From Nostoc punctiforme PCC 73102 (GTDB taxonomy: Bacteria > Cyanobacteriota > Cyanobacteriia > Cyanobacteriales > Nostocaceae): a DNA stretch of 32,000 nucleotides. Below are positions 1-25,125 of this stretch, piece after piece. The stretch is from assembly GCF_000020025.1 (NCBI RefSeq), contig NC_010631.1:30001-62000 (forward strand). Direction: 5' to 3'. The position numbers and the translations under genes were made by a program. How positions within the stretch are numbered: position 1 is the first letter of the stretch; each line of letters starts with the position of its first letter. The notes beneath the pieces are model-generated. The model worked only from the letters and a program-made list of their open reading frames with translations, was not told where the DNA came from and made no database searches.

Positions 1-2191
1 TCAATAATTCTACTGGTGAGTAGCCCTTTGGTGTTATACCTGTGCTTAAATAAACTGAACGCGACTTTTTATCTTTAATATAGTTAACATCACGATACAA
101 GTAGCGGTTGTTTTCCCTGATTTTATCCATCTCAGGTTTTTTAGCACTTTTGAATAAATCAACCGCTATTTGGTTTTGATAACACCCCTCACCAATCATT
201 TCTCGGTACATCAGGCGGTTAACATCCATCGCCTGTTGAATATTTTCTGGGGTTCTTTCATCCAAAGCAAGTTCAACAAACCCTTGTATATAAGGCTTGT
301 ATTCTTCTCGAATTAACTTTGGCTCTTTCTGGCGTTCTTGCTCAAACAGGGTTTCGTAATGGTTAGAAACTTGGTCTAAATAACTTGATTTCTGCTCAAA
401 AGTACCGTAAGTCTTTAGGATTTCTATTTCTGATTCTAGAGCTTCCAATGCAGTAACTTGATTATTAATCACTCCCACGCTGATGCTATCGCTCATGTGG
501 ATGGCGATTTTTTCAAAAGGCGGCTGGATTCCAGTTTCAGGATCGTAGAATGATTGTTTTGTGAGCTTAACTGTAGGGGAATAGGCGTTTTGGGGAAGAT
601 TTCTTCGCTCTGCCTCTGCTGTTAAATTAGGATATAAGCTAGCTCTTGCCACACCAATGCAGTCACCATCGTAGTCTCGTGCTTGGCGTTCTGATTCAGT
701 TTCTGCTGGATCTATTTCTTCAACATCAATCCCTTGCGCTTCTAACTCTGTAATTCTGGCTTGTATGCGCTTGTGGTCTTCGTCATTGACTACAATTATG
801 CCTTTGAGGTCTTTACCATCTGGCCCGAGTCGATCTTTAACGTGCTTGTTAGCAGACACACACAATCCGTTAGAATTCAGAAAAGGAGAACGGAAGTTAA
901 GAATTTTCTCTTCATTCTTTTCCCATGAAACACAGATTTCACCATTTTTTAAATCTTTGGATGGAATAATCATCCCTCGGTCAAAAGTAAGCGTTTTCCC
1001 TAAAGCGATATCTCGCCATTGGCTCTGTACAAACCGACTTAATTCCTGTTTAACTTTTTCCGTTTCTAATAACTGCTGATGACCCAACAAGTCAGCTTTG
1101 ATGAGCTTGTACATGAACAAGTCATCTTTAGTACCCTCGTCATCTAATTCTTCATCTGCATCTAAGTCATCATTTGTCCCTAAGTTTTTAACATCTGCTT
1201 CAAGGCTAGTAAGTTCTCCTATTTTTAATTTACTTTGGTTCAATGATTCTTTGCGTTTTTCATATTTTTCACAATAGTCAGCAGCAACTATTCTTGGGTC
1301 ATCTTGAATAGAGGCTAGTTTTTCAGCTTGTAGCTCTAATTCTTCGGCAAAATCTTTAATTCCTTGGGGGAAAGATGCTAAGAGTTGAGAGATAGACATT
1401 TGACCTTGCTGTGATTGTCCTTTTTCAGCCAACCAAATATTTTGCTGATATAATCCTGGCTTAATCTGTGGTTTAGTCGCCCTTGTTGGTCTGTCCTTAT
1501 CTGTTCCCTTAAAACTACTTATGGGGAGAATTATATCTATTTTTGGTTTATTTTTAGGATCTGCATATTTGATTTTATCAAGCTTGTATGGTCGCAGTGT
1601 CCCTTTTCCAAAACGATATTTAGTAGTATCTTCTCCGTCTCCTTCTACCCAACCAAATCGATGCTGAATAACACGGTAGCTTTTATCTTGCTGTGATTGT
1701 CTTAAAGTTAGCTTGTCATAAAGTTGGGTTGAAATTTGTCCATAACAGTCACCAACTAGTTTATATGCTAAATCATTTGATAATATTCCTCCGTTTTCAC
1801 CCCTGTTTTCAGTAGAATCATCTACTACCAAAATGTTTAGCTTTTCGTGAATCGCATTTTTACAATTCCCCAGGAAGATGGAACCATAAGCACCCCTGTC
1901 TTTACTGTCTGGACAAATTTTTTGAATCGTTTCTAAACATTCTTTTTCTCCATAAAGTAAGCGGGTCTTAGAAGATAATAATAAAATGTATCCATCTGGA
2001 TGATTCCTTAAATTCTCGTCTGTACTGTATTCATCTGAGTGCCCAAAGGAAAACTCTTTGTTAGGGAAATATGATTCTAGTAAAGTATTACTGAGCTTTT
2101 CAGTTAAAATTGATTGAGGACTAGTCTGATTATCATCTACATAAATCCATTGATTTAGCCTGGGGTCGAAATGCTTGAATTCTAGAGTCAT
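1..2191 (-). CDS. RdRP-like (QDE-1/RDR-type, two-barrel) polymerase homolog; C-terminus cut by window edge
   Basis: Not in the supplied ORF track because it runs off the left edge. The minus-strand frame is open from ATG 2191-2189 down to position 2 (730 codons); I hand-translated several stretches and saw no in-frame stops. The N-terminus reads MTLEFKHFDPRLNQW. Collinear motifs: ENGGILSNDLAYKL (1757-1798), VIQHRFGW..RFGKGTL (1595-1672), ILNFRSPFLNSNG (866-904), ARDYDGDCIGV (650-682), ISVGVINNQ (458-484). ORF existence is high confidence; the family call is motif-based only. Confidence 0.6.
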   Translation of the reverse strand, partial: MTLEFKHFDPRLNQWIYVDDNQTSPQSILTEKLSNTLLESYFPNKEFSFGHSDEYSTDENLRNHPDGYILLLSSKTRLLYGEKECLETIQKICPDSKDRGAYGSIFLGNCKNAIHEKLNILVVDDSTENRGENGGILSNDLAYKLVGDCYGQISTQLYDKLTLRQSQQDKSYRVIQHRFGWVEGDGEDTTKYRFGKGTLRPYKLDKIKYADPKNKPKIDIILPISSFKGTDKDRPTRATKPQIKPGLYQQNIWLAEKGQSQQGQMSISQLLASFPQGIKDFAEELELQAEKLASIQDDPRIVAADYCEKYEKRKESLNQSKLKIGELTSLEADVKNLGTNDDLDADEELDDEGTKDDLFMYKLIKADLLGHQQLLETEKVKQELSRFVQSQWRDIALGKTLTFDRGMIIPSKDLKNGEICVSWEKNEEKILNFRSPFLNSNGLCVSANKHVKDRLGPDGKDLKGIIVVNDEDHKRIQARITELEAQGIDVEEIDPAETESERQARDYDGDCIGVARASLYPNLTAEAERRNLPQNAYSPTVKLTKQSFYDPETGIQPPFEKIAIHMSDSISVGVINNQVTALEALESEIEILKTYGTFEQKSSYLDQVSNHYETLFEQERQKEPKLIREEYKPYIQGFVELALDERTPENIQQAMDVNRLMYREMIGEGCYQNQIAVDLFKSAKKPEMDKIRENNRYLYRDVNYIKDKKSRSVYLSTGITPKGYSPVELL

Positions 2192-2238: not shown

Positions 2239-2769
2239 ATGTCGAGAATAAAGCGTTGGGTAAATATGAATAAAAGAGAATTCAACTCAGATGGAAGTTT
2301 GAAGGATGAAGCCCGACAACAAATGTTGGCTACAGGAATGAGTAACGAAGCAATTAATGACTATGCTCTCTCGTTGAAAGAAGAATACGACGAATGGAAG
2401 CACCTGGATCAGACTGACCCAGAGCCGTGGCCAATCTACACAGCCTACGATTTCTTCACTGAACAAGAGAAAAAGGAATTTAACCGTGATGGTTCTCTCA
2501 GACCTGAATATGTAGAATACGCTCGTAAAATTGGCATCAGTGAAAGTGCTTTGGAACACCAAGAGTGGCGTAAGAGAAACGAAGTCGAGAATTATGATGC
2601 TGTATCTGCCGAACATGCAGAACAAGGCATTAACTTTGGTGAAGAACGGATGAAAGAAAGGATTGAAGACAGCAGAACATACGCTCAACGCCGCCGCCAA
2701 ATGGAACAGGACTTGCGGAACTTTGAGCCGGAAGATAGCTTGCCTTTTGATAAAAACACTTCCTATTAA
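2239..2769 (+). CDS. hypothetical acidic protein with internal EFNxDGSL repeat
   Basis: 176-aa ORF with a GAGAGG Shine-Dalgarno-like element 5 nt upstream of the ATG. The protein is highly charged and acidic. It has an internal duplication, EFNSDGSLKDE / EFNRDGSLRPE. It is the only plus-strand gene in the left block. Confidence 0.6.
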   Translation: MSRIKRWVNMNKREFNSDGSLKDEARQQMLATGMSNEAINDYALSLKEEYDEWKHLDQTDPEPWPIYTAYDFFTEQEKKEFNRDGSLRPEYVEYARKIGISESALEHQEWRKRNEVENYDAVSAEHAEQGINFGEERMKERIEDSRTYAQRRRQMEQDLRNFEPEDSLPFDKNTSY

Positions 2770-2989: not shown

Positions 2990-3391
2990 TTATCTATGAT
3001 GTTTTTTACTGTGTGGTGGGGTGTTTTTTGATAATTCTTTGCCAAGAGATAATTCCGACGAAGAATTATTAGATATTGGTGAAGTAGCTATTTTATATAT
3101 GGCAAAACAGCAAGAAATAGCGACTATTGAGATTAAAGTAGCCTGACCAATTATTTGCCAGCAGTTGAAAGTCAGTTGAGGCTGAACTCGCTTAAAGAAA
3201 ACAGACTCCAACTTCTGGTGAGTCGTACAATTTTTCAAGTACTCCAAAACTTGCAGACATTGAGAGATATCTTCGCCTTTATGTACTTTTTGGCACAGCA
3301 GAATTTCTAAGCGTTCAATGCGACGTTCGGGAGTAGATAAATTAATATCGTCCCAATCATCCCAAAGTTTAATTTCTTTTAGTTCGTTCAT
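2990..3391 (-). CDS. hypothetical protein with one C-terminal transmembrane segment
   Basis: 133-aa ORF with AGAGGGA about 8 nt upstream of the ATG. Hydrophobic stretch ATLISIVAISCCFAIYKIA. No recognisable family. Confidence 0.55.
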   Translation of the reverse strand: MNELKEIKLWDDWDDINLSTPERRIERLEILLCQKVHKGEDISQCLQVLEYLKNCTTHQKLESVFFKRVQPQLTFNCWQIIGQATLISIVAISCCFAIYKIATSPISNNSSSELSLGKELSKNTPPHSKKHHR

Positions 3392-3413
3392 AACTTCATC
3401 CCTCTATCAAACT

Positions 3414-3609
3414 ATTGATGCTGTTCCGAATGGCACGCTTGTTAAGCGTTCGTTAACCCTTGGTATTACTGGTTTTGGGGTGTAGGGAATTAGGAACAAC
3501 TTGGTTTTGTCTAGCGGACTAAAATTCAATTTTTATTAACACTACACCCAACACCCTGCCCTGACGATATTTCACATGAGTCTTCATGCCATTCGATGCT
3601 GTTCCAAAG
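3414..3609. other. structured intergenic region (nested inverted repeats plus flanking direct repeat)
   Basis: CGAATGGCA (3427-3435) pairs with TGCCATTCG (3587-3595). GGGTGTAG (3478-3485) pairs with CTACACCC (3542-3549). A small hairpin ACGCTT-gtt-AAGCGT lies at about 3436-3450. GATGCTGTTCC occurs as a direct repeat at 3417-3427 and 3595-3605. Confidence 0.35.
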
Positions 3610-3654
3610 ATAGGGAAAACTAAAACAGACAGTTTCTCTTTCCCCAAAACTTAA

Positions 3655-4173
3655 TTATCTGCGCCGTTTAGGTTTACTCTTATTGCGCTCATACTCAGCA
3701 ATAATATCCTTGGTCTGTTGTGGAAGAATCACACTTTTATTGTTAAATCGCATTTGATATACCAGATAACAGGGACTTTTGGGATCAGGACAGGAAAGAT
3801 TTGTTGGCAGATTAATGATTGTTACTCCTGCAAAAGTCGCAGAAGCTAACATGGCAGAGCCAAAAAAGAAAATACCAGAGCGGCCAGAACCGACCCAACC
3901 ACCGAGCCAAAAAACAAGTCCTTTGAACTGTTCAAAGCGTTTTTGACGAAGTTTTTGACGTTCTAGTTGTGCTTCGTTCCATGCCTGTATTTTTTCCAGC
4001 TTGTAGGCAGCTAATTTATTGGCTTTAGCATCGGAGGCTTTTTCAACTTGAATATCAATAGTGCGTTCTTTGGCTGCAATTTCTTGTTTTAATCGGTATT
4101 CGTTCCATTCTCTAATGCGTTGGGCGACAGCATCGGCGTGGGCGAAGAAGATGGTAAGGGTGTCGTCTCCCAA
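3655..4173 (-). CDS. hypothetical membrane protein; probably the -1-frame C-terminal part of the upstream ORF
   Basis: 172-aa ORF with only a TTG start at 4173. Its frame stays open upstream to about 4252 and overlaps the 3' end of ORF 4089..4946. Features: coiled-coil-like N-part, hydrophobic GLVFWLGGWVGSG..FFFGSAMLASATFAGVTIINL, basic tail KPKRRR. Confidence 0.5.
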   Translation of the reverse strand: MGDDTLTIFFAHADAVAQRIREWNEYRLKQEIAAKERTIDIQVEKASDAKANKLAAYKLEKIQAWNEAQLERQKLRQKRFEQFKGLVFWLGGWVGSGRSGIFFFGSAMLASATFAGVTIINLPTNLSCPDPKSPCYLVYQMRFNNKSVILPQQTKDIIAEYERNKSKPKRRR

Positions 4174-4946
4174 GTCACTCCAGATAACTGTAGCCTCTGC
4201 TGCTTTTTTTCGGCGATTCTCGCCATGATTCTTTCTTCTAATTGAGCGAAGAGGTTATTTTCAGAATCGCTCTGTTGTAATTTCAGTGCAACATTTTTCA
4301 GGTAAAGTGATTGAACTAACTCTGGGGCTTCTTCAGCCTGAGCAGCAGTAATTTTATCAATCAAGCTAGATAAATCTTCTCTTGCCGCTACAGCTTTTTC
4401 ACTAACATTCTCAATCACTGCATCTAATTTTAATTGTTGAGAATTTTCGCTTTTACCTAGAGTTGTTAAGCTGGCTGCAACTTCTTCAAAGGATTTGTTT
4501 TGCTCTTTTATTGATTTGTAGGTTTCAAGAAAGCGTTCGCACTCATCTGGGCTATACTCATCTTGCTCAGATAGTCCGCAGACTTGGAGAATTATTAAAG
4601 CCTGAGAAAGTGCGATTTTATAGCCTCTTTCACGAGCAATAACTAGTAATTCAGTGATATCTAATGGTAATTGGCCTTTCTTCCCTTGTTTTTTCCCCCC
4701 ATTCTTCGTTGATGATGAGGAATTGCCCTGAGTTTCTGACAGTGCATTGTCAACAACTGGAGATAATAGAGCCATTACTTCTTCATCATTTCCACCCTGC
4801 TCAATTAAGGTGCGACATTCACGAAACCTGTCTGCATCATTCTCGGTATATAACTCTTTTTCAGGTATCCCACTCAAGCGTAAAGTCCGGCTAATTTCGG
4901 ATGGTGAGAGGTTGTTAAAAAGTTCTTGTGGTTGATACATAATCAT
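4089..4946 (-). CDS. hypothetical protein (zero-frame product); start may be the second ATG at 4940
   Basis: 285-aa ORF. An AGGAG element lies 3 nt before ATG 4946 and 9 nt before ATG 4940. There are two related helical segments (..DADRFRECRTLIEQG.. and ..PDECERFLETYKSIKEQ..). The last ~37 aa after the A7 tract are P/S/T-rich and look out of frame. Confidence 0.65.
   Translation of the reverse strand: MIMYQPQELFNNLSPSEISRTLRLSGIPEKELYTENDADRFRECRTLIEQGGNDEEVMALLSPVVDNALSETQGNSSSSTKNGGKKQGKKGQLPLDITELLVIARERGYKIALSQALIILQVCGLSEQDEYSPDECERFLETYKSIKEQNKSFEEVAASLTTLGKSENSQQLKLDAVIENVSEKAVAAREDLSSLIDKITAAQAEEAPELVQSLYLKNVALKLQQSDSENNLFAQLEERIMARIAEKKQQRLQLSGVTWETTPLPSSSPTPMLSPNALENGTNTD
4203..4209 (-). 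other. candidate -1 ribosomal frameshift (or indel) site A_AAA_AAG
   Basis: The minus strand reads gcc gaA AAA AAG cag in the frame of ORF 4089..4946. A shift of -1 gives aaa aaa gca gca gag..., which is exactly the frame of ORF 3655..4173. Confidence 0.4.
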
Positions 4947-5045
4947 GCACTCCTAGTTAAAAAGCCTGAAACGAGATATTTGCGTTAATGAAAAAGATGC
5001 TAAGAAAGGAGCAATGCGTCAAATCAATTCAAAAAATAGTCAGTC

Positions 5046-5480
5046 CTAAAAAGGATTTAACCAGTCAGTTTCCGACTCCAATTCTTCTGGTACGGGAGTT
5101 CTGGCTATTTGTAATGGTTCTTTGACTGAAGTTCTGGATATTGGTAATGGTGATGATTGTATTAGTTGTAATGGTTGTGATTGATTAGAGGCTACTGCAA
5201 TCATTGGCATTCCTTGAGAGGGGATTTCTCCCAGCAGTCCCATCAGATATGAAGAGTGGAGTTGAAGGCGGTAAAGACAAGCACGAATGTGTGGCTCTAA
5301 ATTCACGGATTGATCCGCAGCTTGATAAGCTAAAGGAAGCCAATAGCTGCTGATAGCAATCATCGCCATATCTTTAGCAGGATAAAGAGTATTTCTGGAG
5401 TTTAGATACTTAATTACCACGGCTTCGGAACTATCAGCCTTAACTCTACTTCGTAAGCGAAACTCAACATCTGAAAACAT
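5046..5480 (-). CDS. hypothetical protein; positional candidate for a ParR-like centromere-binding adaptor
   Basis: 144-aa ORF directly downstream of the ParM-like gene, with an AGAGGAA RBS. The N-terminus (VEFRLRSRVKADSSEAVVIKYL) fits a strand-helix start of a ribbon-helix-helix fold. The function call is positional only. Confidence 0.45.
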   Translation of the reverse strand: MFSDVEFRLRSRVKADSSEAVVIKYLNSRNTLYPAKDMAMIAISSYWLPLAYQAADQSVNLEPHIRACLYRLQLHSSYLMGLLGEIPSQGMPMIAVASNQSQPLQLIQSSPLPISRTSVKEPLQIARTPVPEELESETDWLNPF

Positions 5481-5556
5481 TCTAATATTCCTCTCTTCAC
5501 AAGCAAATTACTATTACGAATTACGTTAGCGTAGCGGTAGCGACGCAGGAGCGTCA

Positions 5557-6657
5557 TTACGAATTATGAAATATAGCGTGTTGGTAACGAAACAATCCAT
5601 ATACATCAGTGAAACGCAAGCACAAGGCATCTTTTTTAATCGGCAGGTTAAAAGCTAAACGCACATCCTCTGATAATTCTGCTGCCCATGAAATGTCGGT
5701 ATGAGTAAACAAATTTTTCAACTCCGAACCTAAATATTCCGACGTTCCACCACCAATAATGACTTGCTCAATATGGGCAGGAATATTAATTTTGAGCCAA
5801 GTGGATACCTTTTCCCAGTATTCTTTACGAGATAAGTCAGCCACTTCAATAATTTGTGCTATTTCCTCAACCTGAAAATCAGACTTTTTGCTCCGAGCCA
5901 AAGGTTTGCAGTATCTCGGTTTCAATGTCGGGCCTGATAGATGAACAGCCTTTAACAGTTCGTGTAAGTTTTGCCCTGATGTTCGGCTTTTGATTCTCTC
6001 CAGCATCCACGCCAAGCCCAATCCTTCCGTCTTTCCAGTTGAGATACCACGCTCAAAGATTACGGCTGATATATCCCGAAAACCCAGCATCACCACAGCA
6101 ATGTTCATTTTATTGAAATCTGTGCCAAGTTTTTTACTTCGCGTCAATATCAGTCCCCCACCTTCGGGCAAGCACTGAAAGTTAATCAGATTTATACAAA
6201 ATTGTTTCCCTCGAAAGCTAAAGCTAGACAGTGCCTTAGTTAAACCCCTCTCCAATCTCTCTCTATCTTCCCACTCCCCATAAGGCAATAGCAGTCCCAA
6301 GGATAAATCAAAGTTTGCCTTCAAAGAATCTCTAATCGCTATTGCCCCCACTGCTGCCAAAGTTTTTGGAATCGCGTTCTCATACTTGAGTTCTAAAAAA
6401 TTGATTCGCGCTTCAAAATACTTTTGTGCCAAAAACCCAACCGCATAATATTCTTCGTTGTACTCTATCCACGCTTCATTCTCTGGATTGGGCCGATTCA
6501 TTTGCCCAGACTCATATAAATCCAACGAATCTTTGGAAATCTTAATTAACTCTGGTTCCATACACAGCAATTCTGACTTGTACGAAATCTCCGAGAGAAC
6601 ACGATAAACCATCTTCGTCATTGAAGTTCCCGGATCAAGACTCAACATTAAATCCAC
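5557..6657 (-). CDS. actin-like (ParM/Alp-type) plasmid segregation ATPase candidate
   Basis: 366-aa ORF with a GTG start and GGGAGA upstream. Actin-fold signatures read by eye: phosphate-1 LDPGTSMTK near the N-terminus, a degenerate phosphate-2 VVMLGFRDISAVIF, and an adenosine motif VIIGGGTSEYLG. It lies downstream of an iteron block. Confidence 0.55.
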   Translation of the reverse strand: MDLMLSLDPGTSMTKMVYRVLSEISYKSELLCMEPELIKISKDSLDLYESGQMNRPNPENEAWIEYNEEYYAVGFLAQKYFEARINFLELKYENAIPKTLAAVGAIAIRDSLKANFDLSLGLLLPYGEWEDRERLERGLTKALSSFSFRGKQFCINLINFQCLPEGGGLILTRSKKLGTDFNKMNIAVVMLGFRDISAVIFERGISTGKTEGLGLAWMLERIKSRTSGQNLHELLKAVHLSGPTLKPRYCKPLARSKKSDFQVEEIAQIIEVADLSRKEYWEKVSTWLKINIPAHIEQVIIGGGTSEYLGSELKNLFTHTDISWAAELSEDVRLAFNLPIKKDALCLRFTDVYGLFRYQHAIFHNS

Positions 6658-6840
6658 AAGAAAATTTCTCCCTGTTTTTGACCCTTTTTTTGTCTATCTA
6701 ATTGATAATTACTCTCAACTTGAACCGCCCAAACCGTGATTTTTTCCACATTTACGAAGAAATATTACAGTTTTCGCAATACTCTTTGGCTTTTCATAAA
6801 TTCGTGCATCTGATAGAAAATCTCCACAAAATCTCTCAAT

Positions 6841-7060
6841 TCCCAATTTTCACCAATTACATTCAACATCTCCCAATATCTAAACAATATCTCCCAAATC
6901 TCTAATTCATTTCTTACCTTTTCAACTATTCAACATCATTTAGTCACAAAATTCTCATTAGCTTAATATTTTCCAACAATTCCTAAGACTTCCCAAGACT
7001 TCCTAGCACTTCCTGATACTTCCCAATTTCCTCAAGGATTCTCCCAATTATCTAGTAATT
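6841..7060. repeat. iteron block: TCCCAA/ACTTCC motifs, five of them in strict 10-bp tandem phase (parC-like centromere or other protein-binding array)
   Basis: TCCCAA occurs at 6841, 6871, 6892, 6991, 7021 and 7052. Tandem decamers at 6981-7030: tcctaagact tcccaagact tcctagcact tcctgatact tcccaatttc. The array lies in the divergent intergenic region between the ParM-like gene and the relaxase. Confidence 0.55.
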
Positions 7061-7270
7061 AGCTTCAAGAACCACAACCCCTGTAATCCATCTTTTTCTG
7101 ACGCACAGTACGCCATATTTGGCGGAAAGAATGCTCGACTTTTTGCTATATTAAATGACAGGAGAGTTGGGGAAATAAAATTTTGTTTTGGTCAAAGTCT
7201 CACGAAAAAAAAATCATTCGTCATCAAGCACCACGAAGTTTGATAACGGGGATTGATTTTGACCTCAATA

Positions 7271-7301
7271 CTTATTGCAAAGGTGATTATCTTGCAATAA
7301 G
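7271..7301 (+). promoter_or_regulatory. perfect 10-bp inverted repeat, candidate oriT hairpin
   Basis: CTTATTGCAA (7271-7280), an 11-nt loop, then TTGCAATAAG (7292-7301), about 100 bp upstream of the relaxase start codon. The nic site is not identified. Confidence 0.3.
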
Positions 7302-7397
7302 AACAAATAATCAGAATTTTTTGAAAAGAGTTTGTTGCACCAACAGATGGAATAGAACAAGGATTAACTTTTGTAAACCCCATCCCAGAGGTGAGCC

Positions 7398-10300
7398 ATG
7401 CTGACAGCTGCTAACGTTTCTTCAGAGATGGCGGTGAACTACTTCGTCAAAAACTACTACCACCAAGGGAAGTCGCTTTGGAGTGGTCAAGGTGCTTTAA
7501 AATTGGGTTTGTCAGGGGCAATCGATGATGAAGAAGCTTTTAAAAATGTGATCTCAGGGCGTTCACCCCAGGGTCGTGAGCAATTAAATGCCAGGGCCTT
7601 GAAGCCCGACGAACGCAGAGCCGCATTAGACTGTACATTTTCTGCGCCCAAAAGTGTAAGCTTGATGGCCTTGGTGGGCGGGGATACTCGTTTGATTGAT
7701 GCTCACCATCAGGCGCTAAAAGAAACTCTGGAGCTAATAGAGCAGCGTTATGCCTATACCAGAGTGACAGATAATAGCGGCAGACATAGAGTTAAGACTG
7801 GTAACTTGGTCGTCGCGCAGTTCGATCACATCGAAAGTCGGGATTTAGACCCACATCTGCACACCCATTGTTTGCTGATGAACATGACCCAAACTCCAGA
7901 TGGTAGGTGGTTAAGTTTGGGTAATAACGAGATATTCGCCAATAAGAAATTCTTGGGGATGGCATACCAAAGCTCTCTGGCGCGTGAGGTGCAGAAGCTT
8001 GGCTACGAGATAGAAAAGAGCAAACATGGGCAATTTGATATAAAGGGCTTTAAATTCGAGGATTTAGAGGCATTTTCTAAACGCCGACAGCAAATCATCG
8101 CCTCATTTAGTGCTAATTCGACTTGGGCAGAACGTGAGAAAATCTGGGATAATACTCGCCAGCGCAAGCAAAAACTACCAGAATCAGAGTTACTTGCATT
8201 CTGGAAAGAAGAAGCTGCGGCATTAGGGATTAGGTTTGTTAAGGCAGGTGAACCAAGGCAGGAGATACCAGCCAATGAGAAAAGTTTGGCAGAGGTTTTG
8301 GATTTAGCGATCGCACATTGCAGTGAGAGAAATGTCGCTTTTAGACAAGAGGATTTAGAAAAATTCATCCTAGAAGAACGTTTAGCTACGGATATAGCAG
8401 CAACAGCAGCCCTGATTAGAGAGCATCAGGAGTTAATCGCTTTACCAGGATTGACTGACCAATTTACGACGATGACAGCAGTGCGACGGGAACTGGCAAC
8501 GATTGACTTAATGCAGCAGGGTCAATATAAATTTTGCTCCATTTCCCAAAGAGAAGTAGTCGAAAGCCACTTAGAGAACACCTTACTAAATACCGGACAG
8601 CGCCAAGCAGTAGAATTAGCTGCAACAACATCTGACCAGTTCATTGCATGGCAGGGGGTAGCTGGCGCTGGCAAGACTTTTGCCCTCAAAGAGTTGAAGG
8701 CGATCGCTTTTAATGCCGGATATACCATCAAAGGCTTTGCCCCCAGTTCCTCTGCTGCTAAGGTTTTGAGCGAAGAGTTAGAAATTCAGTCTGAAACTAT
8801 TGCTAGATTACTTGTGACTGAACCAAAAGAAATTGAACCAAATCAAATCTGGGTTGTGGATGAAGCGGGTTTACTCAGTGCAAAAGATGCTCATGCACTT
8901 TTACAAAGAGCAACCTTACTTCAAGCTAGGGTAATTTTAGTTGGTGACACTCGGCAGTTGTCAGCAGTAGAAGCCGGTAATCCCTTCAAATCGTTGCAAC
9001 AGGCAGGAATTAAAACCGCACACCTCAATGAATCGTTGCGTCAGAAAAACCCGCAGCTAAAATTAGCAGTAAATTTGATTGCTGATGGCAGGATTGAAGC
9101 AGGATTTGAACGACTAGAAGCCAACGGTTCCATACTTCAAGTAGATAGTTTTTCCAAAATAGAGCAGATCGCCAATGATTATATAGTAGGGACACCAGAG
9201 CAACGACTCAAAACTCTTGTGTTAGCTGGAACAAATACAGAAAGACTTGCCCTTACCCAAGCGATTCGAGACAAGCTCAAGGGTGAAGGGACTTTGGGAG
9301 AAACTGCAACCATCACCCAATTGCAAACCAAAAATCTGACAAAAGTACAGATGCGGTTTGCCCATAACTTTGAAATTGGTGATGTGATCATGCCCACACG
9401 GGATTACAAACGCCGGGGGCTTTCTAAAGGCAAATTATATGAAGTGGTAGGTCGAACTACTGACAAGTTGACACTAAGAAGTGATGATGGACAGCATTTA
9501 GAAGTAGATACAGCATTTGACAAGGCAGTTTACCAGAGGCACCAGATTGAAATTGCTGTGGGCGATCGCTTGCAATGGAAGAAAAACGATCGGCAATTGG
9601 GACGACGCAACGGGCAAGAATTTACTGTGACAGGAATCGACCTGAACATAGTCCACATTAAATATGCTGATGAGCGTACTGAACGCATTAGTTTGGCACA
9701 GACGCAAAACTTAGACTATGCCCTTGTGAGTACAACATATAGTAGTCAGGGGAAAACTGCGGATCAGGTGTTAATTTCGGCAGATTTCACTATTGGACAG
9801 GAAAGTTTTTATGTTGCTGCCAGCCGTGCAAGGCATGAATTAAAAATTTACACCGAAGATCCAACGCGATTGGTAGAGTTAGCGCAACAGTCGAAAGCCA
9901 AAGATAATGCTTTGGAATTGCTACGAAAACAAATTCAGAAATCGACGATTGAGCAGCACCAAGCAATAACTATAAATATAAGTGCCCCTTTTGAGAAGCC
10001 AGTACTAAAACAAGAGACGACAGTATCTACTCCAAATGTCCAGCCAATTGTGAAATCAGTCGCATCTAGCCGGACAACAAGCCATGATTCATCAATAAAA
10101 GTACCGAAAGTCTTGCCCGTCTTGAAAGAGATACCAAACTATAATACTGTTGAATCGGTTTTCTCCAAGCCAGTACTGAAATCTGCTGCCCCAACAGAAG
10201 CATTTTGGACACCACATCAAAGTAAAGACATTCCCAATTTTCTTGAACCAAAGCACTGGCAAGAGTTTGAAGATAGCGCTATCCATCCTGATATTGCGGC

Positions 10301-13300
10301 AAAAAATTTTGAAAGTCTTCAATTCAACTATGCAGGTGGTGAGCATGAGTCTTGGGAAAGACTCATGGTTAGTGAAAAACTTAATCGTACAAATACCGGG
10401 AGGTTAACGGAGGGATTAATCAGAACATATTCTCATCTTGATGCTGGAGGATGGTGGTGTGATGCTGGAGTTGATCCGCGAACATTTGCTGATTTAACCC
10501 CAGGTGATAAACCAACTCTTAAACGATGGGGATGCTACAAGCCAAATCAACCAAGACCCAAAAAAGATGAGAATAATCAAATAATTGAAGGGAAATTCAT
10601 CAAATATGAGCATCCTCCCAAGGTTGAATTAAGCATTTTCCTGCTTAATGTCCCTGACGATATTGCCGAACGCATTTACTCCAAACACAAGGCGAATCCC
10701 AGTGATAGCGATCGCCAGTCAGGATTTTGGTATTGTGTATGGAAACATAATATCCCCTGTGCAATCGCAGAAGGAGCTAAAAAAGCAGCCAGTCTGTTGA
10801 GTCAGGGTCATGCTGCCATTGGGCTACCTGGGATTTCGGCGGGATACCGAACTCCCAAAGATGAGTTTGGCAAGAAAATTGGCAAGTCTTACCTGCATGA
10901 AGAGTTAGCAATTTTTGCCACACCTTCTCGAGAAATCAAATTCTGCTTTGACTATGAAACCAAGCCTAAAACGAAGCTCAATATTGAGAGGGATATTTCC
11001 GTAACTGGAAGATTGTTGCAGAAGCTTGGAGCTAGGGTCAAGGTCGTCAGCTTGCCAGGGCCTTCTAAAGGTGTTGACGATTTCATAGTCGCAAGTGGGC
11101 CACTGGCTTACGAAAAATTGAGCCATGAAGCAATGAAGTTAAGGGACTGGCAACAGCACAATCAACACTCAAAAGTTGCTGCAATAGAACCACCCAAACT
11201 TCAGCTTAAAGAAAGTTCTTTACAACAAACCTCACCAAATCAACCAATAGGACAAACCCATGACAACCAACAACAACCCAACCCAGATACAGTTATTAAC
11301 CGAGAAGATAGAGGAATTATTAACCTCTCACGGGAAACTGAACAAGAATTTCGAGCAGTTAGAAATCAAGAACTCTCAACTCACCGAAAAAATTCAGAGC
11401 TTAGAGGTAGCCCAGCAACAGAGGTTGAGCGACTTCTTACAGCAGTTAGCCGAGACATTGAATGCCAAGAAGTCCTCGAACTTAGAGCCATTAGTACAAG
11501 AATTAACCCAAGCTCTACAGATGATTGGCTTCGAGGTCAACGAGCAACGAACTTCTCAAGACAAGTTAACCCAGAAGATTCAGCAATTATTGACGGCGCA
11601 GCAAGTGATGTCAGTTTTGAACAAAATGGAAACGCCAAACGACCAACTACCGAACAACTCTTAAACGCAATTACTGAGAATATTCAACAGTCAATAGTTG
11701 ATGATGCCTTGGTTGAAACGTTACCACAATTAACAGAACAACTGTACGGGTATCAGCAGCACCTAAGAAGAGCTAGAACCAGATTAGATGACTTTGGAGC
11801 AGTGATTGCTTCAATTGAGCAACAAATTTCATCAAAAAGAACAGTGGATGTAATCTCTGACTTTATTGAACAGTCAGTAGTTGAGTCCACCCTAATAACT
11901 TTGTTGCCACAATTGGTAGAGCAACTCTCTCAAGTCAGTCAGCAATTAGCTCACAAAACAGCTATTGCTCAACAGTCAGAACTTTCAAGTTCACAAAAAA
12001 CTGTTTGGGCAATTGCTGAAAATATTGAATACTTGGCTGTCTCCTCTGCCCTCACTGAAGCTTTACCACTGTTAATAAAACAACTCTCTCCCTTGAGACA
12101 GCAGCAAAAAGGAGTCAGAAGTAGATTTGACGATTTAGAAGCAGTCATTACTCAAATTGAGCAACGACTTTCATCACAAAGAGCTATAGACGCAATTACT
12201 CAAAATGTTGAATACTCGGCTGTCTCCTCTGCCCTCACTGGAACATTACCGCAACTAATAAAACAATTTTCTCCTTTGAGACAGCAGCTAAAAAAAGGTA
12301 TTGCCACATTCGACAAAATATTTACAGCAATTGAGCCATTATCACAACGCCTTGATTTACAAAAAACTATCGATATAATTGCTGAGGATATTGAACAGTT
12401 GGCTGTAGAGTCTGCTTTAAGTGAAACGTTACCACAACTAATAGAGCAACTCTCTCAACATCACCAGCATATCTCAGGAAGGATAACTAAATTCGACGAC
12501 CTAGAAACAGCAATTTCTCAATCTGAGCAGCACCTTTCAACAAAAAAAACTGTCTTATCAGTTCTTGAAAACATAGAACAGTCATTAGTTGAGTCTGCCC
12601 TAGCTGAAACTTTGCCACGGTTAATAGAACAACTTTCTAAAACTTGCCAACAGCAAAAAGCTCTTAAACCCGCATTTGATAAAATATCTACAAGAATTGA
12701 GCATGAAATACAATATCTTTCTTCACAAAGGACTGTAGACGCAATTGCTCAAAATATAGAACAGTCATTAGTTGAATCCATTATTACTGAAACGTTACCA
12801 CAACTAATAGAACAACTTTCTAAAACTTGCCAGCAGCATAAGGGAAGAACCACCTTTGAGGGCTTAGGAGTAGCTATTACTCAAATTGAACAACGGCTTG
12901 ATTCACAAAAAACTGTAGATCCAATTATTGAAAATATCGAATACTCGGCTGTTGAGTCTGCCCTCATTGAAACTTTACCACAATTAATAGAACAACTCTC
13001 TCAATATCACCAGCAGCTAAAAGGAGGAAAAACTAGATTCCACGGCTTAGAAGCAGCTATTACTCAAATTGAACAACGACTTGATTCACAAAGAACTATC
13101 TTATCAATTGCTCAAAGTATAGAACAGTCATTAGTTGAGTCCATCATTACTGAAACCTTACCACAACTAATAAAACAACTTTCTCAATTCAGCCAGCAGC
13201 TAAAAGTAGGAAAAACCACATTCAACCAGTTTCAGCAACTACTGGATAATGAATTCGTAGGGTATTTGACCCAAAAAACTCGAACTTCAGAACACTTAGC

Positions 13301-20614: not shown

Positions 20615-20644
20615 TTTTCCATGTTTACCGTAACGTTATTGTGA

Positions 20645-24641: not shown

Positions 24642-25125
24642 GATACAAGTCCTCCAGGGCTACTACAAAAGGTTTTTTGGTACAAAGAGATTTTACGGTT
24701 GCTTGCTTTTTTACTAAATCAAAGGAAACAGCTTGAACCATTAATGTTTTAGGTGATTCTTCCTTATTTAATAAACTGGTGAAGAAGGGATCATCGAAAG
24801 GTAAAGCATTAGGTGGAAGGGTGGAAGCAGGGGATCGAAAAAGCATGACATAAGCACCTGGGTCAGCAGATTCAGAGTTAATCCCCGGTTGCTCTAATCC
24901 ACTCAATCGCTTATTTTGATATTTCAATGCTCTCAGGCTGGGGGAGCGCTTGATGGCATCCTCGCCCAATTCTATGTACACGCCACAGCCATTCTTCGCT
25001 TCGCTAATAAGCTTTTCATATTGAGCTTGATTATATTGCCAAACCTGAAAGCTGACTATTGACGCAACACCCGCGAGTATTGCCAGTAATAACTTATTTT
25101 GAATAGCTAATGAAAGAATCTTCAT
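24583..25125 (-). CDS. hypothetical bitopic membrane protein of the T4SS operon
   Basis: 180-aa ORF with an N-terminal TM helix (LLLAILAGVASIVSF). It overlaps VirB4 by 4 nt and the downstream ORF by 59 nt. Confidence 0.55.
   Translation of the reverse strand: MKILSLAIQNKLLLAILAGVASIVSFQVWQYNQAQYEKLISEAKNGCGVYIELGEDAIKRSPSLRALKYQNKRLSGLEQPGINSESADPGAYVMLFRSPASTLPPNALPFDDPFFTSLLNKEESPKTLMVQAVSFDLVKKQATVKSLCTKKPFVVALEDLYLEYQPIDRDLRRSDFDILF

What the first reader, a model, noticed from the sequence alone, without database searches (positions are those of the whole stretch)
1..2191. Eukaryotic-type RdRP (QDE-1/RDR-like, DYDGD) two-barrel polymerase homolog on a cyanobacterial conjugative element
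A long minus-strand ORF, missing from the ORF track because it runs off the window, carries five motif blocks in the same order as cellular RNA-dependent RNA polymerases.
- VVDDSTENRGENGGILSNDLAYKL (about 1757-1828), compare sDG.G.iS..la.
- VIQHRFGW-(12 aa)-RFGKGTL (1595-1672), compare Q(I/V)R.gG.KG.
- ILNFRSPFLNSNG (866-904), compare v.RnP..hpgD.
- ARDYDGDCIGV (650-682), the DbDGD metal-binding loop.
- ISVGVINNQ (458-484), compare lG.I.n.H.

Established knowledge: DbDGD is the catalytic signature of cellular RdRPs and is related to NADFDGD of the RNAP beta-prime subunit. Neurospora QDE-1 carries DYDGD and has been reported to copy ssDNA. Single-subunit two-barrel relatives such as YonO occur in prophages.

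Inference: the gene sits on the non-relaxase side of the presumed oriT, in the likely leading region. It could prime or transcribe the incoming single strand, or act in anti-defence. Bacterial members of this fold are barely characterised.
Basis: partly seen in the sequence, partly recalled or inferred. Interest (0 to 1): 0.85.

Follow-up and report, generated by a model that had tools for sequence, protein, structure and literature searches.

The report
RdRP-like polymerase on Nostoc plasmid
The window holds the first 730 codons of a ~1,600-residue plasmid protein whose predicted fold and catalytic residues match eukaryotic RNA-silencing RdRPs (QDE-1/RDR2); the cyanobacterial family was predicted by sequence analysis in 2010-2012 but never tested, and it sits next to the relaxase in most related plasmids examined.

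Summary
A minus-strand ORF runs from the ATG at 2191 off the left edge (730 codons, no stop), and all five motif blocks lie at the stated coordinates.

The core interpretation also holds.
- An AlphaFold2 model (pLDDT 86.5, pTM 0.84) has only cellular RdRPs as its top 16 PDB matches (RDR2, QDE-1; E 2e-8 to 3e-6).
- Diverged relatives (window vs P0245, BLASTP E 3e-22) hit Pfam RdRP PF05183 above its cut-off. The window protein itself does not.
- Residues matching the eight universal two-barrel positions are near-invariant in about 200-230 relatives.

Context: in 48 of 53 related loci with enough flank, a relaxase (MobF or MobV type) lies 3.9-11.4 kb upstream and divergent. This resembles the R388 leading region.

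It is not new as a family. Ruprich-Robert & Thuriaux (2010) and Iyer & Aravind (2011) described cyanobacterial RdRP/YonO-like proteins, some with RNase H. I found that fusion in one family member.

Function is untested. My best guess is DNA-templated RNA synthesis on plasmid single-stranded DNA, acting as a primase.

Nostoc PCC 7120 pCC7120alpha carries an ortholog, so the question is experimentally tractable.

The parts
1..2191 (-). N-terminal 730 codons of a ~1,600-aa RdRP-like two-barrel polymerase gene. ATG at 2191; the ORF runs off the window's left edge.
1730..1753 (-). GDCYGQIS (residues 147-154). Proposed barrel-1 'DGxGxiS' motif; D148 proposed to match QDE-1 D709.
   Evidence: D148 kept in 206/208 and G147 in 200/208. 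D148 to R178 is 30 aa, against 29 aa in QDE-1. Aligned as GDCHG in P0245. The mapping rests on motif and spacing, not on superposition.
1757..1828 (-). VVDD closes a predicted strand; the GENGG loop is variable.
   Evidence: D124 kept in 189/204 and D125 in 175/204. The G131/N133 columns are occupied in only 23-25 sequences. The block is gapped in P0245. Strand E112-123 in the model.
1595..1672 (-). VIQHR...(13-aa family insertion)...RFGKGTL (residues 174-199). Q176/R178 and K196/G197 are proposed to match the RdRP 'QIR..G.KG' motif (QDE-1 R738, K743).
   Evidence: Q176 212/213, R178 212/214, K196 211/212, G197 210/212. Predicted strands 175-181 and 194-202.
1505..1519 (-). SSFKG (residues 225-229). 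An additional near-invariant lysine, K228.
   Evidence: K228 216/217, G229 212/217.
1126..1239 (-). Acidic, predicted-disordered linker (residues 318-355) between the two barrel regions.
   Evidence: pLDDT below 50 for 318-355. Length is variable in the alignment.
866..904 (-). ILNFRSPFLNSNG (residues 430-442). Barrel-2 'RxP' motif; R434/P436 match QDE-1 R962/P964.
   Evidence: Invariant in A1. R434 226/228, P436 224/227. Lies in the part of P0245 that hits PF05183.
650..682 (-). ARDYDGDCIGV (residues 504-514). Metal-binding DxDGD triad D506/D508/D510, matching QDE-1 D1007/D1009/D1011.
   Evidence: Invariant in A1. Kept in 212-215 of 219-221 sequences. QDE-1 residue numbers.
458..484 (-). ISVGVINNQ (residues 570-578). 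Conserved motif at the start of a long helix after the catalytic loop.
   Evidence: G573 204/210, I575 155/209. Helix 571-595.
146..178 (-). QNQIAVDLFKS (residues 672-682). Strongly conserved motif at the end of a 33-residue predicted helix. Its role is unknown; a bridge-helix-like role is speculation.
   Evidence: Q674 181/193, A676 176/193, D678 180/193, K681 187/193, S682 185/192. Helix 648-680.
2239..2769 (+). Conserved divergent partner gene, 176 aa, with 47 nt between the two ATGs. Function unknown.
   Evidence: Present and divergent in 78 of 80 related loci. Spacing is 18-56 nt in all but one locus (1,639 nt there). Weak Myb_DNA-bind_4 hit, E 0.003, below cut-off. Internal repeat EFNxDGSL.
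2990..6657 (-). Co-oriented block between the relaxase and the polymerase: ParM-like (5557-6657), then ORFs 5046-5480, 4089-4946, 3655-4173 and 2990-3391.
   Evidence: ALP_N hit, E 8.5e-5. Annotated ParM/StbA in pNsp_c. A ParM-like gene lies upstream of the polymerase gene in 50 of 53 loci.
6658..7397 (.). Divergent intergenic region between the ParM-like gene and the relaxase. It holds ~10-bp direct repeats (about 6810-7050) and a perfect inverted repeat at 7271-7301. The presumed parC and oriT lie here.
   Evidence: By analogy with R388, where the MOB and stb operons diverge from oriT. The nic site is not mapped.
7398..13826 (+). MobF-type relaxase, 2,142 aa (TrwC + AAA_30 helicase + DUF3854 + DUF6918).
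   Evidence: TrwC E 1.2e-87, AAA_30 E 6.3e-57, DUF3854 E 2.9e-47.

Best explanation
SHOWN. The ORF encodes the N-terminal catalytic module of a large (~1,600 aa) single-chain polymerase of the two-barrel superfamily, in its RdRP-like branch. That superfamily also includes the RNAP beta/beta' subunits, YonO and PolD. The residues I map to the universal active site are all present and near-invariant: D148, R178 and K196 in barrel 1; R434 and P436 in barrel 2; and the D506-x-D508-G-D510 metal triad. The enzyme is therefore very probably active. The gene is a backbone gene of large cyanobacterial plasmids. In Nostocales it sits a few kb from the relaxase gene, on the other side of the presumed oriT. 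It is transcribed away from the relaxase, behind a ParM-type partition locus, and is paired with a conserved divergent 176-aa gene.

INFERRED (most likely mechanism). The enzyme makes RNA on a DNA template, specifically on the plasmid's single-stranded form. It would supply primers, or a first transcript, for complementary-strand synthesis after conjugative entry and/or during plasmid replication. That would make it a third, non-Toprim and non-AEP, kind of plasmid primase. The variable C-terminal fusions in relatives fit a protein that works on RNA:DNA hybrids and on incoming ssDNA. These fusions are RNase H, an SF1 helicase, and ADP-ribose/NAD-related domains (Macro, NADAR, DUF4326, SLOG). 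In that respect it resembles the 'polyvalent' proteins of conjugative elements.
For: Fold:
- AF2 model pLDDT 86.5, pTM 0.84.
- Foldseek PDB top 16 hits are RDR2 and QDE-1 (E 2.2e-8 to 3e-6), followed by P23-45 gp96 RNAP, NRPD1 and beta'.
- The best BFVD hit is a phage protein annotated as RdRP, E 2.8e-11.

Sequence:
- The family profile finds 521 cluster representatives.
- Diverged members hit PF05183 above its gathering score.
- Window vs P0245 gives E 3e-22 with the motifs aligned.
- Catalytic residues are near-invariant and match the eight residues listed for QDE-1.

Context:
- Conjugation genes are in the window.
- 48 of 53 loci have a MobF- or MobV-type relaxase 3.9-11.4 kb upstream, always divergent.
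- In R388 the operon diverging from the MOB genes at oriT enters the recipient first.
- 77 PLSDB plasmids carry the gene, all cyanobacterial: 38 typed conjugative and 15 mobilizable.
- Several plasmids in one strain each keep their own copy.

For a DNA template and a priming role:
- RNase_H PF00075 is fused in P0147 (E 2e-29).
- An SF1 helicase is fused in P0157 and P0210.
- NADAR, DUF4326, SLOG and Macro are fused in others.
- QDE-1 copies ssDNA as well as RNA (abstract of PMC9508822).
- YonO is a DNA-dependent RNAP (abstract of PMC5467207).
- Aravind and colleagues proposed a primase role for these prokaryotic RdRP-like enzymes.
- Conjugative Toprim primases TraC1 and Sog are transferred and prime the incoming strand (PMC5512222).
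Against: - No biochemical or genetic data exist for any member of this cyanobacterial family. Template, product and timing are all inferred.
- The window protein itself does not reach any Pfam, NCBIfam, PADLOC or PDB sequence model.
- I could not superpose the model on QDE-1, so the barrel-1 residue mapping rests on motif, spacing and conservation.
- The Nostoc-type protein has none of the informative fusion domains. P0107 gives 0 Pfam families. Its C-terminal ~870 aa gave a poor model and no fold match.
- The MobF relaxase already carries a DUF3854 domain, which from my memory is Toprim/primase-like. That could make a second primase redundant.
- If the nick has R388-like polarity, the transferred strand is the coding strand of this gene. 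It then cannot be expressed from the incoming single strand. It would have to be delivered as protein or made only after second-strand synthesis.
- 24 of the 77 plasmids are typed non-mobilizable. MOB-suite does miss relaxases in some of these plasmids, for example in pNsp_c and the Halotia plasmid.
Confidence: 0.5

Rival explanations
1. Vegetative replication enzyme. The polymerase is the plasmid's own replication primase or initiator, making the RNA primer at oriV. It is linked to the relaxase only because plasmid backbone genes cluster.
For: - The gene is flanked by partition loci: ParM-like upstream, and ParM/StbA plus ParA/ParB downstream in pNsp_c and pNsp_b.
- Each co-resident plasmid keeps its own diverged copy, as expected for a cis-specific backbone function.
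- Helicase and RNase H fusions are typical of replication proteins.
- 24 of 77 carrier plasmids are typed non-mobilizable.
- A primase role 'enabling their replication' was proposed in the literature.
Against: - The position and orientation relative to the relaxase are kept across two unrelated relaxase families (48 of 53 loci). That is more than loose backbone clustering.
- No origin-like feature next to the gene was identified.
- This rival is not exclusive with the best explanation; one enzyme could prime in both situations.
Confidence: 0.2
2. Dedicated plasmid transcriptase. Like YonO of SPbeta or the virion RNAPs of crAss-like and P23-45 phages, it transcribes a set of plasmid genes (for example early or leading-region genes) independently of host RNAP.
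For: - YonO is a DNA-dependent RNAP (abstract of PMC5467207).
- P23-45 gp96 RNAP and crAss-like phage proteins appear among the structural matches.
- A sigma-independent RNAP would help a broad-host-range element express genes on entry.
Against: - No candidate promoters or regulon were identified.
- RNase H fusion suggests removal of RNA from RNA:DNA hybrids, not mRNA production.
- tblastn finds no phage relatives.
- If the nick polarity is R388-like, the neighbouring leading-region genes have the transferred strand as their coding strand. ssDNA transcription of them would then yield antisense RNA.
Confidence: 0.15
3. True RNA-templated RdRP. It copies RNA into dsRNA or antisense RNA for plasmid gene regulation, exclusion of competitors or anti-defence, as a prokaryotic analogue of RNAi amplification.
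For: The closest solved structures are RNA-silencing RdRPs. Ruprich-Robert & Thuriaux raised RNA-mediated regulation as a possibility. The tight divergent and antisense arrangement with the 176-aa gene could produce overlapping transcripts.
Against: - No Argonaute-, Dicer- or RNase III-type partner was seen in the window or in the annotated neighbourhoods I inspected.
- The fused domains (RNase H, SF1 helicase) point to DNA or hybrid substrates.
- QDE-1 itself uses ssDNA, so fold similarity does not fix the template.
Confidence: 0.1
4. Catalytically dead scaffold or decaying gene. The similarity is a relic and the protein has a structural or unrelated role.
For: Many database copies are partial, IS-interrupted or split. 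Examples are the N. flagelliforme chromosomal fragments P0038 and P0067, the IS next to P0105, and the IS5 in H12.
Against: Every proposed active-site residue is kept in more than 95% of about 200-230 diverged relatives. The window copy is open for all 730 codons and 95% identical to intact plasmid copies.
Confidence: 0.05

Closest known systems
Cyanobacterial RdRP-like / YonO-like proteins (Ruprich-Robert & Thuriaux 2010, NAR, PMC2919709; Iyer & Aravind 2011, J Struct Biol, as summarised in PMC3417536)
   Same: This is very probably the same family. It is restricted to cyanobacteria among named members. It carries the same bipartite motif set with the eight invariant residues. Some members have the RNase H fusion that Aravind's group noted for 'the cyanobacterial versions'.
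   Different: As far as I could read them, those papers place the proteins in 'main genomes' or 'novel selfish elements'. I did not find them describing the features below. The 2011 paper itself is not held in the library, so I cannot exclude that it mentions some of them.
- the fixed position beside MobF/MobV relaxases on large conjugative plasmids
- the conserved divergent 176-aa partner
- the SF1 helicase, NADAR, Macro, DUF4326 and SLOG fusions
Eukaryotic cellular RdRPs: Neurospora QDE-1 (2J7N, 7Y7P-T), Arabidopsis and maize RDR2 (7EU1, 7W82); Pfam PF05183
   Same: They are the best structural matches over 675-969 aligned columns. They share DYDGD/DFDGD, RxP, a QxR...KG motif and a DxxGxIS-like motif. 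Diverged relatives of the window protein pass the PF05183 threshold.
   Different: - Only 9-12% identity to these structures.
- The window protein does not hit PF05183 directly.
- A 13-aa insertion lies between R178 and K196, and a ~30-aa insertion between RxP and DxDGD in the Nostoc type.
- An unrelated ~870-aa C-terminal region follows the core.
- It has a plasmid rather than an RNAi context.
- Template preference is unknown.
YonO of Bacillus prophage SPbeta, and the phage single-chain two-barrel RNAPs (P23-45 gp96; crAss-like virion RNAP)
   Same: They are single-polypeptide two-barrel polymerases encoded by mobile elements and belong to the same RdRP-like radiation according to the literature. 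P23-45 gp96 is a significant fold match (E 5.6e-4), and crAss-like phage proteins appear in BFVD.
   Different: These matches are weaker than those to eukaryotic RdRPs. tblastn finds nothing in 50,697 phage genomes. Those enzymes transcribe phage genes, whereas this one is plasmid-borne beside a relaxase.
Conjugative primases TraC1 (RP4) and Sog (ColIb-P9/R64), and the primase modules of 'polyvalent proteins' (Iyer et al. 2017, PMC5512222)
   Same: The proposed job is the same: RNA synthesis on the incoming single strand. They also share the large multidomain format and family-level fusion to variable helicase and conflict-related domains.
   Different: The fold is unrelated (Toprim or AEP versus two double-psi beta-barrels). 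In the passages I searched, that survey lists Toprim, AEP/PrimPol and N4-type RNAP modules but no two-barrel module. Neither transfer of this protein nor primase activity has been shown.
R388 stbABC leading-region operon
   Same: The layout is the same: a MOBF relaxase and MPF_T system, with a maintenance operon diverging from the relaxase operon at the oriT region, preceded by short direct repeats.
   Different: The first gene here is an actin-like ParM, not StbA/StbB. R388 is not known to me to carry a two-barrel polymerase.

Membership tests
Two-barrel (double-psi beta-barrel) nucleotide polymerase superfamily | Overall fold with two barrel domains forming one active site | tested here: met
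   The high-confidence AF2 model aligns over 675-969 columns to RDR2 and QDE-1 with probability 1.00, and over ~140-225 columns to NRPD1 and beta'.
Two-barrel (double-psi beta-barrel) nucleotide polymerase superfamily | DxDxD metal-binding triad in barrel 2 | tested here: met
   D506-Y-D508-G-D510 is invariant in A1 and kept in 212-215 of 219-221 relatives.
Two-barrel (double-psi beta-barrel) nucleotide polymerase superfamily | The remaining five of the eight universally invariant residues (QDE-1 D709, R738, K743, R962, P964) | tested here: met
   R434/P436, D148, R178 and K196 are each kept in at least 98% of relatives. The barrel-1 mapping is by motif and spacing only.
Two-barrel (double-psi beta-barrel) nucleotide polymerase superfamily | The DxDGD triad lies on a barrel loop facing the barrel-1 basic residues | not testable with these tools
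Cellular RdRP family (Pfam PF05183) | Protein scores above the PF05183 gathering threshold | tested here: not met
   The window protein gives 0 Pfam families at E up to 10. The full-length relative P0107 also gives 0.
Cellular RdRP family (Pfam PF05183) | Homology to PF05183 members through intermediate sequences | tested here: met
   P0233 (24.4 bits), P0240 (27.7) and P0245 (31.2) exceed the 23.8-bit cut-off. They are hit by the family profile at E about 1e-70 to 1e-80, and the window vs P0245 gives E 3e-22.
Cellular RdRP family (Pfam PF05183) | RNA-templated RNA synthesis | not testable with these tools
   Requires biochemistry.
Cyanobacterial RdRP-like family of Iyer & Aravind / Ruprich-Robert & Thuriaux | Cyanobacterial distribution, with some members fused to RNase H | tested here: met
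   All named members are cyanobacterial. P0147 (Gloeothece verrucosa PCC 7822) has RNase_H at 2017-2147, E 2e-29, and P0131 has RVT_3.
YonO-like DNA-dependent single-subunit RNAPs | Sequence or structural similarity to YonO itself, and promoter-dependent transcription of dsDNA | not tested
   No YonO structure appeared among the hits. tblastn of the phage collection found nothing. Activity is not testable here.
Conjugative DNA primases (Toprim TraC/Sog type or AEP type) | Toprim or AEP catalytic fold | tested here: not met
   No Toprim or AEP Pfam hit, and the fold is two-barrel. Only the 'works like' claim is made.
Polyvalent proteins of conjugative elements (Iyer et al. 2017) | Very large protein on a conjugative element or phage, combining several catalytic or conflict domains in variable architectures | tested here: inconclusive
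   At family level this is met: lengths reach 3,686 aa, with helicase, RNase H, SLOG, NADAR, DUF4326 and Macro fusions. For the Nostoc-type protein only the polymerase module is recognisable.
Polyvalent proteins of conjugative elements (Iyer et al. 2017) | Delivered into the recipient with the DNA | not testable with these tools
   Needs a translocation assay.
Leading-region gene of a conjugative plasmid | Lies on the side of oriT that enters the recipient first | tested here: inconclusive
   The position is divergent from the relaxase in 48 of 53 loci and matches the R388 layout. However, oriT and nic are not mapped; only an inverted repeat and direct repeats were seen.

The most novel reading that the evidence does not exclude
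The two-barrel RdRP-like polymerase is a third, previously unrecognised class of conjugative primase or early RNA polymerase. It would be made in the donor, or immediately after entry, and would act on the transferred single strand of large cyanobacterial plasmids. Relatives carry RNase H, helicase and ADP-ribose-removing modules that would process the hybrid and protect the ssDNA. It would then be a living example of the kind of mobile-element enzyme from which the eukaryotic RNAi RdRPs are proposed to derive.
Probability: 0.3. Interest if true: 0.8.

Novelty: new member of a known kind. Interest (0 to 1): 0.5.

Why it matters
Eukaryotic RNA-silencing RdRPs have no known cellular ancestor. 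The proposal that they came from polymerases of bacterial mobile elements rests on sequence analysis alone. This cyanobacterial family is structurally closer to QDE-1 and RDR2 than to any solved phage or cellular RNAP in my searches. It is abundant (521 cluster representatives at 50% identity, and 77 sequenced plasmids). An ortholog is present on pCC7120alpha of Nostoc/Anabaena PCC 7120, which to my knowledge is a genetically tractable model strain. That would make its natural template and role directly testable. If it primes or transcribes transferred ssDNA, it would also add a new enzyme class to conjugation biology. It could further explain how large cyanobacterial plasmids, which often carry natural-product clusters, establish themselves in new hosts.

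Tried and rejected
- Direct profile searches of the 730-aa fragment found nothing useful. Pfam, NCBIfam and PADLOC gave no hits, and PHROGs gave one meaningless weak hit.
- PDB sequence searches with the single protein and with the family profile returned only chance hits.
- Model coordinates are not exposed, so I could not superpose the active sites.
- The C-terminal ~870 aa lies outside the window. The AF2 model of P0076 was poor (pLDDT 63.8, pTM 0.34). Foldseek gave nothing below E 0.016, only weak ModE/Mop-like beta-domain resemblances. I draw no conclusion from it.
- The 'Ribonuclease HI' label on the N. flagelliforme fragments is not backed by a Pfam RNase H hit in the Nostoc-type protein. 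The label probably propagated from the Gloeothece proteins, one of which (P0147) does carry RNase H.
- An Rfam scan of the whole window found no family.
- A tblastn search of phage genomes found no match.
- Contexts of three very diverged homologs (P0100, P0105, P0106) showed toxin-antitoxin genes, IS elements, a DUF3987 protein and a topoisomerase, but no relaxase within 10 kb. The relaxase link is therefore documented only for the Nostocales-type loci.
- Iyer & Aravind 2011 could not be read. Its content is cited second-hand from PMC3417536.
- I considered PolD-like DNA polymerase activity and set it aside, because no PolD structure appears among the top 50 fold matches.

Full report
**1. 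What is in the sequence**

Translating window 2191->1 on the minus strand gives 730 codons with no stop. An in-frame TAA sits at 2221-2219 and the first start codon after it is the ATG at 2191. Homologs begin with the same MTLEFKHFD. The ORF leaves the window at its left edge, which explains its absence from the ORF list.

The closest complete copy is on plasmid pNsp_c of Nostoc sp. ATCC 53789 (94.8% DNA identity). It is 4,791 nt, or 1,596 aa, and is annotated 'hypothetical protein'.

**2. Is it more than chance?**

A word-indexed search found 106 relatives. All named ones are cyanobacterial. All are annotated hypothetical apart from two fragments labelled 'Ribonuclease HI', and none has a precomputed Pfam domain. 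In a 21-sequence alignment reaching 26% identity, the invariant columns include R434, P436, N439 and N441 (the RSPxxNSNG block) and D506, D508, G509 and D510 (the DxDGD block).

A profile search of 1.84 billion cluster representatives found 521 proteins at E<=1e-3 and 283 at E<=1e-30, with lengths up to 3,686 aa. I aligned about 250 of these to the family HMM. The conservation counts are below.

| Residue | Kept in |
|---|---|
| D148 | 206/208 |
| Q176 | 212/213 |
| R178 | 212/214 |
| K196 | 211/212 |
| K228 | 216/217 |
| R434 | 226/228 |
| P436 | 224/227 |
| D506 | 212/219 |
| D508 | 213/221 |
| D510 | 215/221 |

These are the residues expected for an active site, not a chance pattern.

**3.

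It falls in a poorly occupied insertion and is gapped in the diverged relative P0245.

The block immediately after it, GDCYGQIS (residues 147-154, window 1730-1753), fits D-G-x-G-x-i-S at D, G, I and S, and it is near-invariant. D148 lies 30 residues before R178. In QDE-1 the corresponding D709 lies 29 residues before R738 (residue list in PMC2919709).

This insertion is also present in the most diverged members.

**4. Fold**

AlphaFold2 with the 21-sequence alignment gave a confident model: mean pLDDT 86.5 and pTM 0.84. Only an acidic linker at 318-355 falls below 50.

Foldseek against the PDB returned the following:
- The 16 best hits are all cellular RdRPs: Arabidopsis RDR2 (7eu1_M, E 2.2e-8, TM 0.43 on the query), maize RDR2, and QDE-1 from Neurospora and Thielavia. 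They align over 675-969 columns at 9-12% identity.
- Next comes phage P23-45 gp96 RNAP (E 5.6e-4).
- Then come Pol IV NRPD1 and many bacterial beta' subunits, over ~140-225 columns.

**5. Sequence link to Pfam RdRP**

The window protein has no direct hit in Pfam, NCBIfam, PADLOC or PDB sequences. Diverged members recovered by the family profile at E about 1e-70 to 1e-80 do hit PF05183 'RdRP':
- Above the 23.8-bit gathering score: P0233 (24.4 bits), P0240 (27.7) and P0245 (31.2).
- Just below it: P0241 and P0242.

The window protein aligns to P0245 at BLASTP E 3e-22 over 592 residues. GDC[YH]G, Q-x-RF, KGTL, SS-KG, R-x-P and D-[YF]-DGD all fall in register. Homology to the cellular RdRP family is therefore supported by sequence as well as by fold. 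Strict membership of PF05183 fails for this protein itself.

**6. Genomic setting**

The window is a conjugative plasmid segment:

| Coordinates | Strand | Feature |
|---|---|---|
| 5557-6657 | - | ParM-like actin |
| 7398-13826 | + | 2,142-aa TrwC relaxase / SF1 helicase / DUF3854 protein |
| 13874-14737 | - | Mrr-type endonuclease |
| 16846-18609 | - | Type IV coupling protein |
| 19784-22111 | - | TrbI- and CagX-like genes (weak hits, below Pfam cut-offs) |
| 25122-27860 | - | VirB4-like ATPase |

PLSDB holds 77 plasmids with a relative. All are cyanobacterial: Nostoc 37, Tolypothrix 6, Gloeothece 5, Pseudanabaena 5 and others. Of these, 38 are typed conjugative, 15 mobilizable and 24 non-mobilizable. 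MOB-suite misses relaxases in some of them. pNsp_c is typed non-mobilizable although a MobF relaxase is annotated, and the Halotia plasmid is typed the same although a MobV relaxase is annotated. Several plasmids within one strain each carry their own ~85%-identical copy. No relative was found in 50,697 phage genomes.

**7. Conserved synteny**

A scan of species-representative genomes gave 267 loci. The best 80, nearly all labelled Nostocales, were fetched. I located the window's neighbours in them by tblastn. Among the 53 loci with at least 7 kb upstream:
- 48 have a relaxase gene 3.9-11.4 kb upstream of the polymerase start.
- That relaxase is always on the opposite strand.
- 18 are of the window's MobF/TrwC type and 30 are of an unrelated MobV type.
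- 50 of the 53 also have a ParM-like gene upstream of the polymerase gene.

A 176-aa gene (window 2239-2769, +) is the divergent neighbour of the polymerase gene in 78 of 80 loci. The two start codons are 18-56 nt apart in all but one locus (1,639 nt there); the gap is 47 nt in the window. The same order is seen on pCC7120alpha of Nostoc sp. PCC 7120, where the polymerase ortholog is WP_010999746.1, 4,791 nt.

So the block ParM - ... - 133-aa ORF - 176-aa ORF <-> polymerase is anchored to the relaxase/oriT junction, whichever relaxase family is used.

**8. Is it the leading region?**

In R388, which is also MOBF and MPF_T, the MOB operon and the stbABC operon diverge from the oriT region. [quoted passage not shown] The window has the same geometry:
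- The relaxase gene starts at 7398.
- A perfect inverted repeat, CTTATTGCAA-N11-TTGCAATAAG, lies at 7271-7301.
- A run of ~10-bp direct repeats lies at about 6810-7050, upstream of the ParM-like gene.

By analogy the polymerase gene is 5.2 kb into the leading side. It remains an analogy, because no nic site was mapped.

One consequence follows by inference. With R388-like polarity the transferred strand is the coding strand of the polymerase gene. It then cannot be transcribed from the incoming single strand. It would be expressed only after second-strand synthesis, or act as a protein made in the donor.

**9. Clues to mechanism from relatives**

Longer family members carry extra domains downstream of the conserved core, except P0131, where the domain is N-terminal:

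| Domain | Protein(s) | Note |
|---|---|---|
| RNase H (PF00075) | P0147, Gloeothece verrucosa PCC 7822 | E 2e-29 |
| RVT_3 (N-terminal) | P0131 | |
| SF1 helicase (AAA_30 / UvrD_C_2 / PIF1-like) | P0157, P0210 | |
| SLOG (cpYpsA, YAcAr) | P0110, P0193 | |
| NADAR and DUF4326 | P0193, P0177 | |
| Macro | P0236 | |

RNase H and helicase fusions point to RNA:DNA hybrids and DNA unwinding. From general knowledge, Macro and NADAR domains remove ADP-ribose, including from DNA. A variable multi-domain architecture on conjugative elements is the hallmark of 'polyvalent proteins'. In those proteins Toprim or AEP primase modules are common, and the related primases TraC1 and Sog are transferred with the DNA (PMC5512222). 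In the passages I searched, that survey lists no two-barrel module.

The Nostoc-type protein itself shows none of these extra domains. Its C-terminal ~870 residues lie outside the window. They modelled poorly (pLDDT 63.8) and matched nothing (best E 0.016).

**10. Most likely function**

Shown: an intact, conserved two-barrel RdRP-like catalytic module encoded by a backbone gene beside the relaxase of large cyanobacterial plasmids.

Inferred: it synthesises RNA on plasmid DNA, most plausibly on the single-stranded form. It would provide primers for complementary-strand synthesis on entry and/or in replication. The support is as follows:
- The RNase H and helicase fusions described above.
- QDE-1 copies ssDNA as well as RNA.
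- YonO is DNA-dependent.
- Aravind's group made a primase proposal for these enzymes.
- Conjugative primases are delivered with the DNA and prime the incoming strand.

I give the combined statement about 0.5. The rivals are:
- a purely vegetative replication primase (0.2)
- a dedicated plasmid transcriptase, YonO-style (0.15)
- a true RNA-templated RdRP for RNA-based regulation or anti-defence (0.1)
- an inactive relic (0.05)

**11. Novelty**

Ruprich-Robert & Thuriaux (2010) reported about 50 YonO-like proteins in firmicutes, cyanobacteria and Bacteroides. They assigned 'the cyanobacterial gene products' to a family of their own and called the biological role 'an enigma'. Aravind et al. (2012), citing Iyer & Aravind (2011), state that RdRP cognates occur in firmicute phages and in novel selfish elements. 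[quoted passage not shown]

The RNase H-bearing Gloeothece protein P0147 falls within the family found here. The window gene is therefore a new member of an already predicted kind.

What appears to be additional here:
- the confident structural confirmation, with eukaryotic RdRPs as the closest solved structures
- the conserved position beside two relaxase families
- the conserved 176-aa partner
- the wider set of fused domains
- the size of the family

I found no experimental study of any member. The 2011 paper itself was not available.

**12. Verdict**

- Novelty: a new member of a known, computationally described and experimentally untouched family.
- Interest is moderate (0.5). The identification is not a surprise to specialists. 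However, the system offers a tractable route, via Nostoc PCC 7120 pCC7120alpha, to the natural function of the prokaryotic relatives of RNAi polymerases, and possibly to a new class of conjugative primase.

Noticed in passing
window 2239-2769 (+), and the 47-nt gap 2192-2238: A 176-aa gene diverges from the polymerase gene with only 47 nt between the two ATGs. The pair is conserved in 78 of 80 related loci, with spacing of 18-56 nt in all but one locus (1,639 nt there). The protein has an internal repeat (K-[RK]-EFN-x-DGSL at about aa 12-21 and 78-87) and only a sub-threshold Myb/SANT-like hit. The polymerase promoter must overlap this gene or run antisense to it.
   Followed up: partly
window about 6810-7050: A run of ~10-bp direct repeats (TTCCTAAGAC, TTCCCAAGAC, TTCCTAGCAC, TTCCTGATAC, plus TCTCCCAA variants) lies upstream of the ParM-like gene (5557-6657, -). 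It looks like a parC-type centromere beside the presumed oriT.
   Followed up: no
window 7271-7301: A perfect 10-bp inverted repeat, CTTATTGCAA-N11-TTGCAATAAG, lies about 100 bp upstream of the relaxase ATG (7398). It is a candidate oriT hairpin or operator.
   Followed up: no
related loci L003-L087 (relaxase 3.9-11.4 kb upstream of the polymerase gene): The same ParM...polymerase block sits next to two unrelated relaxase types, MobF/TrwC in 18 loci and MobV in 30 loci. This suggests modular exchange of the relaxase against a constant leading-side block.
   Followed up: partly
window 7398-13826 (+): The 2,142-aa relaxase combines TrwC, an AAA_30/TraI-type helicase, DUF3854 (residues 1110-1235) and a sub-threshold DUF6918 match. 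If DUF3854 is primase-like, as I recall, the plasmid may encode two different priming activities.
   Followed up: no
window 13874-14737 (-): An Mrr_cat restriction-endonuclease-domain gene lies directly downstream of, and convergent with, the relaxase gene. A 'restriction endonuclease' gene occupies the same place on pNsp_b (L086 28958-29614).
   Followed up: no
family members P0110, P0131, P0147, P0157, P0177, P0193, P0210, P0236: Relatives reach 3,686 aa and carry variable extra domains: RNase H, RVT_3, SF1 helicase, cpYpsA/YAcAr SLOG, NADAR, DUF4326 and Macro. This is a polyvalent-protein-like pattern with an ADP-ribose/NAD theme.
   Followed up: partly
window 1126-1239 (-), residues 318-355: A strongly acidic, predicted-disordered linker (…DDLDADEELDDEGTKDD…) separates the two barrel regions. 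Its length varies widely between relatives.
   Followed up: no
P0038 and P0067 (N. flagelliforme CCNUN1 chromosome); H12/H22 (Nostoc sp. C057 plasmid); L082: Many copies are split, IS-interrupted or labelled 'partial'. Two chromosomal fragments are annotated 'Ribonuclease HI', although no RNase H domain is detectable in the Nostoc-type protein. This is probably label propagation from the Gloeothece proteins.
   Followed up: partly
L088 (Nostoc sp. PCC 7120 pCC7120alpha, record 193773-198563): Nostoc sp. PCC 7120 carries an ortholog (WP_010999746.1, 71.5% identity over the 730 aa). It has the same divergent small gene and a MobV relaxase about 8-10 kb upstream.
   Followed up: partly
window 3655-4173 and 4089-4946 (-): Two co-oriented ORFs (172 and 285 aa) overlap by 85 nt. 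The overlap is preserved in related loci (for example L003, L004, L023). The 172-aa product has a weak REase_MTES_1575 hit (E 0.008).
   Followed up: no
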